Positions 46,423 through 49,400 of a stretch of DNA of 64,000 nucleotides are shown here, piece by piece. The stretch is from an uncultured Alphaproteobacteria bacterium. GTDB lineage: Bacteria > Pseudomonadota > Alphaproteobacteria > RF32 > CAG-239. Positions within the stretch are counted from its first letter, which is position 1. Every line of letters starts with the position of its first letter. Position numbers and translations under genes: made by a program. Below the pieces are notes generated by a model. It was given only the letters and a program-made list of their open reading frames with translations, searched no databases and had not been told where the DNA came from. The stretch covers positions 3,143 to 67,142 of the forward strand of contig CANRJO010000004.1 of assembly GCA_947630965.1 (NCBI GenBank), given 5' to 3'.

Positions 46423-49400
46423 GCAAAGAAGTCTTAACAAATTCGGAAAGATATGTCCGCAAAACAAACCGCATCATTTTAATGGTGGGCGTTGTTTCTT
46501 TTGTGGTCTTTTTGTTCGGACTTTTTTTGCTTTTTTCCGATAATGAGAACATGGATAATTACCAAGAGCCGGTTTTCACAGATGATGAAGATGCCATTAA
46601 TATGGGCAGCAGCACCAATCCTTTAATGGAAAACATTGAATTCGACGACATATCTGAAAAAGATGTGCCCATTACCACAACGCCAAACCCTGTTCACATG
46701 GGTGTTGTTGTTTTAGGCACTCAAGCAAAAAATGTGTTAACCATTGGCACAAACGGCAAGGGGAGCATTCGCATAGTTTCGGTCAGGCTTGCTGAGCCGC
46801 CTTTTGACGGTTTCACTTATAATGACGGTTGCACAAGTGCTGAATTAAGAGGTAATCAAACCTGTAACATCACCATGAATTGGGCGCCGATTATCTCGGG
46901 CAATGTGCAAAACAATTTTATTGTTTCATGGCACGAAACAAACGTGAGCGCGCAAAATGCCAAGGCTGAAAAAATCTCATTTGACGGTAAGGCAGTCACA
47001 AAAGAAGAGTGCAACTTTTGCGAATCGACAGGCGTTAACCCTGCCGCGGCGGGTTATCGGCTGATATACGATGAAAACGGTAATGTCATTGGTTATGTTG
47101 ATGATAATGGCACCGCGTATGATTTAAATGGAAACGTCATAGGCAGAATGCTTGAAGACGGCACAGTCGTTGATGAAAACGGCAATGTCATTGGAAAAGT
47201 CGGTGCAGATAGAGCTCGCCTGATATATGATGAAAACGGCAATGTCATTGGATATGTCGGTCCCGACGGCACCGCATATGATCTAAATGGAAATGTCATT
47301 GGCAGAATGCTTGAAGACGGCACTGTTGTTGATAAAAACGGCAATGTCATTGGAAAAACAGCAGGTGCCACAAGCGCCAAAAAGCGTTTGGCTTATGGAC
47401 CCAACGGCGAAGTCATTGGTTGGATTGATGATGAAGGCTATGTCCATGACGAAAACGGTAATATTATCGGACGCGTGGATTCGAATGGAATGGTTGTAGA
47501 CGCTGATGGCAATATTATAGGTGTGGCGGGCAATGAAAAACTGATATACGATGAAAACGGCAATGTCATTGGTTATGTCGGCAATGACGGCACCGCGTAT
47601 GACCTTAAAGGGAATATCATTGGCAAAGAGTTACCGGACGGCAGTGTTGTAGATGCAAACGGCGTGCCCATAGGCAAGGCTGTTGAAGCGGGGTATGTTT
47701 ATGATGCCAACGGTAATATCATCGGGCGTGTTTTGCCTGATGGAACGGTTGTTGATGCTGAGGGCAATGTGATAGGTCGCCTTAATGCGAACGGCGAAGT
47801 TGTTGACATGAACGGTCGTACCATTGGTCATGTCAGCAAGCCGGGGCAAACGGCGCTTGATGAAGACGGCAATGTTTTAGGCGTTGTTTTGCCGGATAAT
47901 TCTGTTGTGGATGAAAACGGTAATGTCATTGGTTATGTTGATGAAAATGGCAATGTTTTCAAAAACTCGGGCGAAGTCATCGGGAAAGCAGGTCCGGCGC
48001 GGCGTTTATATTACGATGCAAACGGCAATTTACTTGGATACATTGATGAAAACGGCAATATTGTAGATTTTGACGGCAACATCATTGGCAAAGTTTTGGA
48101 AGACGGCACGGTTTTAGACGCCAACGGCAATGTCATTGGTAGAATGCTTGAAGACGGTACAATTGTTGATAAAAACGGCAATATCATTGGTCGCGCCGGC
48201 GGGTATAATAATTTAGCTTTGGATGAAAATGGCAAAGTCATAGGTTATGTTGATGAAGACGGCAATGTGCACAATGCTGACGGGGAAGTTATCGGTAAGG
48301 TGGATGAAAACGGCAATGTCATCAGCAATGAAATGGTTTGGGTTGGCGCGCTTGTTAACAAAAACCTCATCCCCATAACGCCAAGTGGTGAAGTTTTAGG
48401 AACAATTGCCGATAACGGTGAAGTCGTTGATGCCAAAGGGCTTACTTTGGGTCGCATTTTACCCAACACTTTAGTCAAAGACCCCAAAGGTGCCAAAATT
48501 TTAGCAAAGGGCGTACGTGGTGGCACGGTCATTGGTTGGGGCTGTAAGAATGAGGGTGTTTTGAACAAAGACGGCACAGTCACGAAAGGCTCGGACAATT
48601 TAGAATATAAGGTTTATCCTGACGGCACAATCTTTGACCCCAACGGCAAATATATTGGCGAAGTTGCTAGACAAGGGCGTGTTTTTGGTGCGCAATGCAG
48701 TTATTTAGGCACGGCGGACGCGCAAGGACTTGTTTATAATGATTCGCGCAAATATGTTGGTTGCGTTAATCCCGATGGCACAGTTTTAAATGAAAACGGC
48801 GATATCATTGGACGTGTGGCGGAATACAAAGCCGTATTTGCCGCCAACGGTTCAACGTTAGGTTATTTAAAGGTAAACGGCGTTGTTCAGCAAGCGGACA
48901 GCACAGTTGGGTGCGTTGACGCCAACAAAGAGGTTTACAATGCAAACGGGCAATACAAGGGCATTTTGTCAGACAAGTCTTATGCTTTTGATTTCCGCGG
49001 AAACTTACTCAACATGTTTGCCTTAGACGGTTCTTTAAAAATCAAAAAGCATCCTGGCGCGAAATTATTTTTAAACCGTTACATTGCGGATAAGGAAAAC
49101 AACATCATTGGCGTTGCCTTGCCTGAAAAGACGGTTGTGATAAATGCTGATGGTCAAGTCATGGGTCATGTTTTTGCAGACGGCAACTTATATGATGAAT
49201 CAGGTGTGGCTCTTGGCAAAATTTTTGGAAACGGCACAGCGTTTTACAACAATGTTTTAGGTCACATTTTACCTCTTGGTGCGGTGGTTGATAAAAGTGG
49301 CGCCAAGGTTGGTTTTGTAAACGTTGACATGCGTGTCATCAACCGTTTTGGGGAAGACTTAGGCAAAATAGATGCCAAAGGGCGTTGGTTTGACTCAAAC

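What the first reader, a model, noticed from the sequence alone, without database searches (positions are those of the whole stretch)
47061..47600. Near-identical 159-bp in-frame DNA repeats inside the VirB10-associated gene, a candidate recombinational size-variation hotspot
The two adjacent copies 47061-47219 and 47220-47378 differ at only a handful of positions. A third copy at ~47541 and further copies near 48090-48180 share >85% identity. Each 159-bp copy encodes exactly 53 aa. Unequal homologous recombination would therefore add or delete whole repeat blocks in frame. This is the mechanism by which H. pylori CagY tunes T4SS function and evades immunity.
Basis: partly seen in the sequence, partly recalled or inferred. 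Interest (0 to 1): 0.7.

Follow-up and report, generated by a model that had tools for sequence, protein, structure and literature searches.

The report
Old block duplication in split VirB10
The repeat is a real but old, in-frame duplication of a three-hairpin (53-residue) module in the membrane-anchored half of a giant, split VirB10 secretion-system protein of an uncultured gut alphaproteobacterium; relatives gain and lose such modules slowly, so it is not a fast CagY-style switch.

Summary
A 159-nt in-frame tandem duplication exists, but it is not near-identical. The 142-nt core is 87%, and the longest exact run between the copies is 23 nt. The "third" and "further" copies are 73-80% and 72-76% identical, not above 85%.

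The base unit is a 51-nt (17-aa) beta-hairpin repeat (Pfam Bflower/DUF3659). The 159-nt block holds three hairpins. The gene is the N-terminal, membrane-anchored half of a giant VirB10. A sister clade has this as one 2,200-aa protein; here it is split in two.

The two copies differ mostly synonymously (dS 0.59, dN 0.067). A second strain (dS 0.026) has the same block count and an identical protein.

Across 14 related species this site holds 0, 1, 2 or 4 blocks. Three of 10 within-species ortholog clusters show in-frame indels (52, 53 and 84 aa) bounded by direct repeats, including an exact 159-nt one.

So repeat-mediated block gain and loss is real in this family. It runs at roughly one event per 0.1 synonymous substitutions per site. 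Exact repeats are about 7-fold sparser than in cagY. The immune-tuning reading is untested.

The parts
46419..50207 (+). Gene for a 1262-aa protein: cytoplasmic tail, one TM anchor, an ASH/PapD-like Ig domain, and about 1050 aa of 17-aa beta-hairpin (beta-flower/DUF3659) repeats. It is the N-terminal half of a split giant VirB10.
   Evidence: ORF. Pfam Bflower_2 E=1e-93, Bflower 3e-46, DUF3659 4e-37. The N-terminal 203 aa are collinear with the N-terminus of the 2202-aa TrbI-containing P0036, E=1e-24. The single fused gene occupies the same position between virB9 and virB11 in L021. AF2 model is all-beta, pLDDT 82.
46473..46535 (+). Transmembrane anchor (aa 19-39, IILMVGVVSFVVFLFGLFLLF), preceded by the basic tail RYVRKTNR. 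Inferred topology is N-in, with the rest periplasmic.
   Evidence: Kyte-Doolittle 19-residue window 2.98. It is the only hydrophobic segment in the protein.
46671..47003 (+). ASH/PapD-like Ig-fold domain.
   Evidence: Foldseek against PDB: CEP192 PapD-like domain 6fvi (TM 0.63, rmsd 2.5 A) and HYDIN 2e6j (TM 0.73). Model pLDDT is about 80-87.
47010..47021 (+). Conserved CNFC landmark that bounds the variable-block site on its 5' side.
   Evidence: Present in all 14 orthologs at aa 197-198.
47055..47213 (+). Block copy 1: 53 aa, three 17-aa hairpin units plus a short linker (YRLIYDENGNVIGYVDDNGTAYDLNGNVIGRMLEDGTVVDENGNVIGKVGADR).
   Evidence: In the model each unit is predicted as a beta-hairpin.
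47214..47372 (+). Block copy 2: 53 aa, the tandem duplicate of copy 1. The 142-nt core is 87% identical, with 13 synonymous and 7 nonsynonymous differences in 47 codons.
47385..47408 (+). Conserved RLAYGPNG landmark that bounds the variable-block site on its 3' side.
   Evidence: The spacer from CNFC to this landmark is 21-22, 68-72, 125 or 232 aa, corresponding to 0, 1, 2 or 4 blocks.
47541..47681 (+). Block 'C': a conserved paralogous 3-hairpin block present in all orthologs. It is the likely donor of copies 1 and 2 by duplication or gene conversion.
   Evidence: Copies 1 and 2 are 73-76% nt identical to C, and 83-85% in the first 72 nt. Blocks at this site in all relatives are 50-63% identical to their own C block. 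The nearest protein neighbours of copies 1 and 2 are C-type blocks.
47019..48400 (+). Zone that holds all 25 identical direct repeats of at least 16 bp in the gene. All are in frame. The longest is 35 nt (47070-47104 and 47910-47944, offset 840).
50209..54432 (+). VirB10 C-terminal half (1407 aa, GTG start 1 nt after the upstream stop): Sec signal peptide (LGFAHA|EE), about 1000 aa of the same hairpin repeats, and a TrbI/VirB10 domain.
   Evidence: Pfam TrbI E=8e-33 at aa 1116-1312 of the 1437-aa ORF translated from 50119, and Bflower_2 4e-53. Gene call in L001. Signal peptide. Only 1 exact repeat of at least 16 bp.
44686..46422 (+). VirB9/CagX homolog with a C-terminal SPOR-like region, immediately upstream. 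Its end overlaps the repeat gene's start by 4 nt.
   Evidence: Pfam CagX E=4e-11. Synteny is conserved in 14 species.

Best explanation
The 159-nt repeat is a lineage-specific, in-frame tandem duplication of a three-hairpin (53-aa) module. It lies at the start of a long array of 17-aa beta-hairpin (beta-flower/DUF3659) repeats.

The host gene encodes the inner-membrane-anchored N-terminal half of a giant VirB10. In this clade of uncultured gut Alphaproteobacteria the VirB10 is split into two adjacent genes.

The duplication arose by unequal recombination or replication slippage between in-register 51-nt-periodic repeats. Its sequence is closest to a conserved downstream block, so it was copied or converted from that block.

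It is old and fixed, and both copies are kept under purifying selection. Each block lengthens the periplasmic hairpin array by three hairpins.

Across the family the same process adds and removes blocks at this site and elsewhere. The pace is that of strain-to-species divergence, about one event per 0.1 synonymous substitutions per site. It is not a high-frequency contingency switch.

Shown here: the duplication, its age relative to strain divergence, the block-number series, the strain polymorphisms in relatives, and the VirB10 split.

Inferred: the recombination or slippage mechanism (from direct repeats at indel junctions), the periplasmic location (from TM and signal-peptide topology), and the view that the fused form is ancestral.
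For: - Repeat and register.
- Family and fold: Pfam Bflower_2, Bflower and DUF3659 all above their cut-offs. The [DNEQ]xxG hairpin-tip motif is described for beta-flowers in PMC10584680. The AF2 model is an unbroken run of hairpins, pLDDT 82.
- VirB10 identity: about 85 of the top 120 homologs carry TrbI. P0034, P0036 and P0042 share ORF1's N-terminus and end in TrbI. BLASTP gives E=1e-24. L021 has the order VirB8, 65-aa gene, VirB8, VirB9, one 2202-aa VirB10, VirB11.
- Age and selection: copy 1 vs copy 2 has Sd 13, Nd 7, dS 0.59, dN 0.067. Window vs second strain L001 has 22 synonymous and 0 nonsynonymous changes, no indel, dS 0.026.
- Block-number series 0/1/2/4 at one site between conserved landmarks in 14 species.
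- The four blocks of L008, L009, L012 and L013 are one-to-one orthologous, so that state is stable across four species.
- Within-species indels: 3 of 10 clusters at 90% identity. An exact 159-nt indel separates L016 and L017 (dS 0.075), and a 156-nt indel separates L018 and L019 (dS 0.14). All junctions carry direct repeats.
- Origin from block C.
- Exact-repeat density is 6.6 per kb with a maximum of 35 bp, against 0-1.1 per kb in the neighbouring genes tested (0-0.2 in the T4SS genes).
Against: - Only two strains of the window's own species could be found. Absence of size variation in this species therefore rests on one comparison.
- Metagenome assemblies can mis-assemble repeats. However, the exact repeats (110 nt or less) are shorter than the assemblers' k-mers (119-141), and both alleles recur in independent contigs.
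- dS between the copies would understate or overstate age if gene conversion has acted. The C-like sequence of both copies shows that conversion or transposed duplication did occur at least once.
How three-hairpin blocks pack (for example, two blocks forming one six-petal flower) is not established.
Confidence: 0.78

Rival explanations
1. This is a CagY-like contingency locus. The repeats are a high-frequency recombination substrate, and the organism uses it within hosts to resize the protein, tune T4SS activity and evade immunity.
For: - The architecture parallels CagY: a VirB10 with a huge repeat region between the TM anchor and the TrbI domain.
- All 25 exact repeats of at least 16 bp are in frame.
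- A 33-bp repeat sufficed for a cagY deletion in mice (PMC2194252), and this gene has one 35-bp repeat.
- Block indels segregate within 3 of 10 related species-level clusters.
Against: - The copies are only 87% identical, with dS 0.59.
- Exact-repeat density is about 7-fold lower than in cagY, and the repeats are much shorter.
- The two strains have an identical protein and block count, with 0 nonsynonymous changes in 1262 codons.
- Seven of 10 ortholog clusters show no block-size variation among up to 14 full-length members.
- Block states are conserved across whole species groups.
- There are no Pfam CagY hits. The repeats are an unrelated beta-hairpin type.
Confidence: 0.08
2. There was no discrete duplication. 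The 159-nt similarity is only what a 17-aa protein repeat with biased codon use produces by convergence.
For: The whole array shares the motif D-x-x-G-N-[VI]-I-G. Many 51-nt units are 60-77% identical.
Against: - The pair stands far outside the background: 86.7% against the next-best 80% and 77%, which both involve these same blocks, and a 99.9th percentile of 48%.
- Similarity is contiguous over three units and includes non-motif positions.
- Relatives have one block fewer at exactly this site.
Confidence: 0.02
3. This is an assembly artefact: a spuriously expanded repeat in a metagenome-assembled contig.
For: The window appears to come from a MAG contig, and repeats are error-prone in short-read assembly.
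Against: - An independent assembly from another sample (Logan DRR848556, L001) has the same two blocks, while differing at 22 synonymous sites in the gene.
- The copies share no exact run longer than 23-25 nt, so a de Bruijn graph has no ambiguity there.
Confidence: 0.02
4. This is concerted evolution. The two blocks, and block C, are kept similar by recurrent intragenic gene conversion. The duplication would then be much older than dS suggests, and similarity would reflect ongoing homogenisation.
For: - Copies 1 and 2 resemble the downstream C block more than they resemble the blocks that relatives carry at this site. The first 72 nt are 83-85% identical to C.
- A 35-nt exact match links 47070 and 47910.
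Against: - The synonymous differences between the copies are spread along the block, not arranged in conversion-tract mosaics.
- There are no differences between the two strains that look like conversion events.
- In the L008 group paralogous blocks have stayed distinct and orthologous across four species.
Confidence: 0.1

Closest known systems
Helicobacter pylori CagY (VirB10 ortholog) middle repeat region
   Same: Both are VirB10-derived proteins with a very large repeat region between the N-terminal membrane anchor and the C-terminal VirB10/TrbI domain. In both, all recombination between intragenic direct repeats stays in frame. In both, size variants differ by whole repeat modules and are bounded by direct repeats (PMC2194252, PMC5954226).
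   Different: - The repeats are unrelated in sequence and fold: 17-aa beta-hairpin beta-flower/DUF3659 units here, against 31-39-aa A/B motifs in CagY. There are no CagY Pfam hits.
- Exact-repeat density is 6.6 per kb (max 35 bp) here, against 43-52 per kb (up to about 156 bp) in cagY.
- Variation is seen only between diverged strains (dS 0.075-0.14), not within clones.
- Here the protein is split into two genes.
- No evidence exists for surface exposure, integrin binding or immune-driven selection.
Anaplasma phagocytophilum VirB6-3 and VirB6-4 tandem repeat regions (rvh-type T4SS)
   Same: Both are alphaproteobacterial rvh-like T4SSs with duplicated VirB8 and multiple large VirB6-like genes. 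In both, a structural component carries in-frame tandem repeats whose number differs between strains (PMC3556328; layout).
   Different: The component differs (VirB6 against VirB10). The Anaplasma repeats are long arrays of near-identical 84-405-bp units with dramatic strain variation. Here the array is ancient and degenerate, with only occasional single-block changes.
Beta-flower / DUF3659 repeat proteins (Pfam PF21784, PF21785, PF12396; clan CL0395)
   Same: Strong profile matches, the [DNEQ]xxG hairpin-tip motif, and predicted beta-hairpin petals.
   Different: The described beta-flowers are small domains of about 96-116 aa with 4-6 petals. Here about 50 hairpins run continuously for about 1050 aa, and they are embedded in a T4SS VirB10. 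That context was not found in the searchable literature.

Membership tests
CagY-type recombinational repeat region (contingency locus in a VirB10) | The host protein is a VirB10 ortholog. | tested here: met
   ORF1's N-terminus is collinear with that of single-gene 2200-aa TrbI-containing proteins (E=1e-24). Those proteins occupy the same virB9-virB11 slot. ORF1 itself lacks a TrbI domain, which is in the adjacent gene.
CagY-type recombinational repeat region (contingency locus in a VirB10) | An extraordinary density of identical direct DNA repeats of at least 16 bp. In cagY this is 43-52 per kb, mean 35-48 bp (PMC2194252). | tested here: not met
   25 pairs, 6.6 per kb of gene (17.8 per kb within 47.0-48.4 kb), mean 19.8 bp, max 35 bp.
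CagY-type recombinational repeat region (contingency locus in a VirB10) | All potential recombination events are in frame. | tested here: met
   25 of 25 repeat pairs have offsets divisible by 3. This is expected for any codon-level protein repeat.
CagY-type recombinational repeat region (contingency locus in a VirB10) | Size variants among clonal or closely related isolates of the same species. | tested here: inconclusive
   The only two strains found (dS 0.026) have the same length and an identical protein. Three of 10 related species-level clusters do show in-frame indels of 52, 53 and 84 aa.
CagY-type recombinational repeat region (contingency locus in a VirB10) | The repeat region is surface-exposed, interacts with the host, and modulates T4SS function. 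| not testable with these tools
   Only topology can be inferred. The TM anchor and signal peptide place the arrays outside the cytoplasm.
Beta-flower / DUF3659 repeats (Pfam CL0395) | Profile match above the Pfam gathering score. | tested here: met
   Bflower_2 308.9 bits (cut-off 38), Bflower 156.8 (cut-off 25), DUF3659 126.3 (cut-off 24.8).
Beta-flower / DUF3659 repeats (Pfam CL0395) | Beta-hairpin petals with a [DNEQ]xxG tip motif. | tested here: met
   The D-E-N-G / D-x-x-G motif recurs every 17 aa. The model shows paired short strands per unit. The motif is defined in PMC10584680.
Beta-flower / DUF3659 repeats (Pfam CL0395) | Closed 4-, 5- or 6-fold barrel ('flower') domains. | not testable with these tools
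Foldseek against PDB gave no compact match for the array.
VirB10/TrbI family | C-terminal TrbI beta-barrel domain. | tested here: not met
   Absent from the 1262-aa protein. Present in the adjacent 1407-aa protein (E=8e-33). The pair together corresponds to one VirB10.
Simple-sequence-repeat phase-variation locus | Identical short units (1-10 nt) whose number shifts the reading frame or promoter spacing. | tested here: not met
   The periods are 51 and 159 nt, the copies are diverged, and all changes are in frame.

The most novel reading that the evidence does not exclude
Uncultured gut Alphaproteobacteria carry a second, evolutionarily independent repeat-expanded VirB10. It is a beta-flower hairpin array of 1000-2000 aa, either in one 2200-aa protein or split into a TM-anchored half and a secreted TrbI half. 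Its length changes by whole three-hairpin blocks within species. If block number sets the reach or target contact of an rvh-like T4SS in a commensal, this would be a CagY analogue outside Helicobacter. That would contradict the statement that CagY is unlike other VirB10 orthologs in having a large repeat region (PMC5954226).
Probability: 0.15. Interest if true: 0.75.

Novelty: new variant of a known kind. Interest (0 to 1): 0.45.

Why it matters
Repeat-mediated, in-frame resizing of T4SS components is established for CagY and for Anaplasma VirB6. This case extends the principle to a different repeat fold (beta-flower hairpins). It also extends it to a VirB10 of gut commensal Alphaproteobacteria, an architecture I could not find described in the searchable literature.

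The case gives a natural series (0, 1, 2 or 4 blocks at one site, plus strain polymorphisms). That series could be used to ask how the length of the VirB10 periplasmic or extracellular region affects T4SS function.

For the specific claim, the value is corrective. The locus is a slow evolutionary length variant under purifying selection, not a demonstrated hypervariable switch.

Tried and rejected
- More strains of the window's species. The 90% clusters hold only this sequence. GTDB genomes gave only other species at 60% best-segment identity or less. JGI metagenomes gave one unrelated 1.3-kb fragment. Only Logan DRR848556 (L001) qualified.
- Literature on beta-flower or DUF3659 in T4SS, and on gut alphaproteobacterial VirB10 repeats. 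Nothing relevant turned up.
- The afdb50 fold library was unavailable. The PDB Foldseek search matched only the N-terminal Ig domain.
- Model coordinates were not exposed. I could not test whether two 53-aa blocks close into a six-petal flower.
- Stop-codon readthrough or frameshift joining ORF1 to VirB10. Rejected: the two ORFs share a frame in some relatives (L002, L016) but not in the window or L018, so no conserved recoding exists.
- The antisense ORF at 47093-47380 (95 aa). Rejected as a by-product of the repeat: all between-strain changes are synonymous in the + frame.
- The window contains no tRNA genes.
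Full report
**1. Observation**

Tandem Repeats Finder reports a period-159 array at 47057-47357. It has 1.9 copies, 87% matches, no indels and score 476. A nested period-51 array lies inside it.

The similar core is 142 nt (47057-47198 vs 47216-47357), with 18 mismatches. The last ~17 nt of each block are unrelated. The longest exact run in register is 23 nt.

The blocks are codon-aligned with the ORF that starts at 46419, so each encodes 53 aa.

In an all-against-all scan of in-frame offsets over 46419-54432, this pair is the best 120-nt match at 86.7%. 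The next best are 80% and 77% (copy 2 and copy 1 against 47541), then 75% and 72.5% (against 48071). Background is mean 26%, with a 99.9th percentile of 48%.

The duplication is therefore real and non-random. 'Near-identical' and 'above 85% for the other copies' are overstated.

The underlying unit is 51 nt. About 24 copies at 60-77% identity lie between 47.05 and 48.8 kb, and more lie in the next gene.

**2. What the gene is**

The ORF 46419-50207 encodes 1262 aa. Its parts are:
- a basic N-terminal tail;
- one strong TM helix at aa 19-39;
- an ASH/PapD-like Ig domain, matched by Foldseek to 6fvi and 2e6j with TM 0.63-0.73;
- a CNFC motif;
- about 1050 aa of 17-aa D-x-x-G-x-x-I-G units.

Pfam assigns the units to Bflower_2 (E=1e-93), Bflower (3e-46) and DUF3659 (4e-37). 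The beta-flower fold is built of beta-hairpin petals with a [DNEQ]xxG tip (PMC10584680). An AlphaFold2 model built with 29 homologs (alignment A1) has mean pLDDT 82 and pTM 0.62. It is an uninterrupted series of short hairpins. Low-confidence breaks fall before block 1 and after block 2.

The gene sits in a VirB-type T4SS operon in this order:
- VirB3 and VirB4;
- four large ORFs with no Pfam hit, in the VirB6 position;
- VirB8, a 62-aa lipoprotein, and a second VirB8;
- VirB9;
- this gene;
- a 1407-aa protein with a signal peptide, about 1000 aa of the same repeats and a TrbI/VirB10 domain;
- VirB11.

About 85 of the top 120 database homologs are ~2,200-aa proteins that combine the repeats with TrbI. 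Three of them, read in full, begin with the same tail, TM, Ig domain and Cys motif as ORF1. BLASTP over the first 203 aa gives E=1e-24. In one such genome a single 2202-aa gene lies between virB9 and virB11 (L021).

Canonical VirB10 is one polypeptide, so I infer that the fused form is ancestral.

**3. Age and selection**

Across 47 aligned codons the two copies differ by 13 synonymous and 7 nonsynonymous changes. That gives dS 0.59, dN 0.067 and dN/dS about 0.11.

An independent assembly from another sample (Logan DRR848556, L001) is 98.5% identical over 10.9 kb. Within the gene it has 22 substitutions, all synonymous, and no indel. Its dS is 0.026 and its block count is the same.

The duplication is therefore about 20-fold older than the split of the only two strains available. 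Both copies are under purifying selection.

**4. Comparative evidence for block turnover**

Fourteen related species, all uncultured gut or faecal Alphaproteobacteria MAGs, keep the order VirB9, repeat protein, repeat-VirB10, VirB11. The repeat protein ranges from about 1,140 to 1,600 aa.

The spacer between the conserved CNFC and AYGPxG landmarks takes four lengths:
- 21-22 aa, no block (L010, L015);
- 68-72 aa, one block (L002-L007, L011);
- 125 aa, two blocks (the window);
- 232 aa, four blocks (L008, L009, L012, L013).

In the four-block group, blocks 1 and 3 resemble each other, as do blocks 2 and 4. This points to duplication of a two-block unit. Each block is orthologous across the four species, so that state is old and stable.

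The window's two blocks are not closest to the blocks that relatives carry at this site. They are closest to the conserved downstream block C at 47541. Identity to C is 73-76% nt, and 83-85% in the first 72 nt. In every relative the corresponding figure is 50-63%. The window's blocks were therefore copied or converted from C.

Within 10 ortholog clusters at 90% identity, seven show no block-size differences among full-length members. Three do:
- 1576 vs 1629 aa;
- 1258 vs 1310 aa;
- 1286 vs 1370 aa.

At the DNA level the first is an exact 159-nt tandem-block indel between strains at dS 0.075 (L016 vs L017). The tandem copies there are 93% identical over 120 nt. The second is a 156-nt indel between strains at dS 0.14 (L018 vs L019).

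A 189-aa indel separates two fused giant VirB10 proteins that are 92% identical (P0036 and P0042). In all four cases the missing segment begins with the same residues as the sequence that follows it, up to 25 identical aa. This is the signature of deletion or duplication between direct repeats.

**5. Comparison with CagY by its own metric**

Aras et al. counted identical direct repeats of at least 16 bp in cagY (PMC2194252). They found:
- 43-52 per kb of gene, with 235-302 repeat sequences in the MRR;
- mean length 35-48 bp;
- identical repeats of up to 156 bp;
- all 1,215 potential recombination events in frame;
- variants arising within clonal populations and within single hosts.

The same count here gives 25 pairs, or 6.6 per kb. 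Mean length is 19.8 bp and the maximum is 35 bp. All 25 are in frame, and all lie within 47.0-48.4 kb. Other genes tested in the operon have 0-1.1 per kb, with 0-0.2 in the T4SS genes.

Relatives with an observed polymorphism have exact repeats of up to 110 bp.

The locus is therefore recombinogenic relative to its neighbours but far weaker than cagY. The observed pace is about one block change per 0.1 dS.

**6. Verdict**

The feature is a genuine, old, fixed duplication of a three-hairpin module in the anchored half of a split, repeat-expanded VirB10. The claims of near-identity, of a present-day hotspot in this strain, and of CagY-like functional tuning are not supported.

The wider architecture is the more interesting result. 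It is a beta-flower VirB10, fused or split, in an rvh-like T4SS of gut Alphaproteobacteria. I found no description of it in the searchable literature. One CagY paper states that CagY is unlike other VirB10 orthologs in having a large repeat region (PMC5954226).

Noticed in passing
window 55535-59962 (+): The 1475-aa gene after virB11 has no Pfam hit. It is hypervariable between the two strains: dS 0.58 and dN 0.21 over about 545 aligned codons, against dS about 0.02 in the adjacent T4SS genes. This suggests allele replacement or diversifying selection, so it is a candidate effector or adhesin.
   Followed up: partly
window 32480-55413 (+): The T4SS layout resembles the Rickettsiales rvh system: VirB3, VirB4, four large ORFs without Pfam hits in the VirB6 position (35296-42809), VirB8, a 62-aa lipoprotein (lipobox LLSAC, about 43.7 kb, VirB7-like), VirB8, VirB9 with a SPOR-like C-terminus, the split VirB10, and VirB11. 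No VirD4 was seen next to it.
   Followed up: partly
L021 8001-14609; P0034, P0036, P0042: A sister clade encodes a single ~2,200-aa VirB10 that combines ORF1's N-terminus, a hairpin array and TrbI. P0036 and P0042 (92% identical) differ by a 189-aa indel flanked by a 25-aa direct repeat.
   Followed up: yes
window 47070-47104 and 47910-47944: This is the longest exact direct repeat in the gene: 35 nt, with an offset of 840 nt, in frame. Recombination between the copies would delete 280 aa. It is similar in length to the 33-bp repeat that mediated a cagY deletion in mice.
   Followed up: partly
window 20692-21654 (+) and 27912-29615 (-): A second VirB11/T2SSE-family ATPase and a secretin lie upstream of the T4SS. 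They indicate a separate secretion or pilus gene cluster.
   Followed up: no
window 60241-61389 (-): A Fic/DOC-domain protein lies just downstream of the T4SS. Fic proteins serve as T4SS effectors in some Alphaproteobacteria (my own knowledge). No link was tested here.
   Followed up: no
window 8086-8988 (-), 11063-17339 (+): A tyrosine recombinase (XerC/D-like) and an AddAB-like PD-(D/E)XK nuclease plus UvrD-helicase pair are present. This is consistent with chromosomal context rather than a plasmid.
   Followed up: no
window 52032-52066: A small 18-nt repeat (1.9 copies) lies inside the VirB10 gene. It is the only other tandem repeat TRF reported in 44-53 kb.
   Followed up: no
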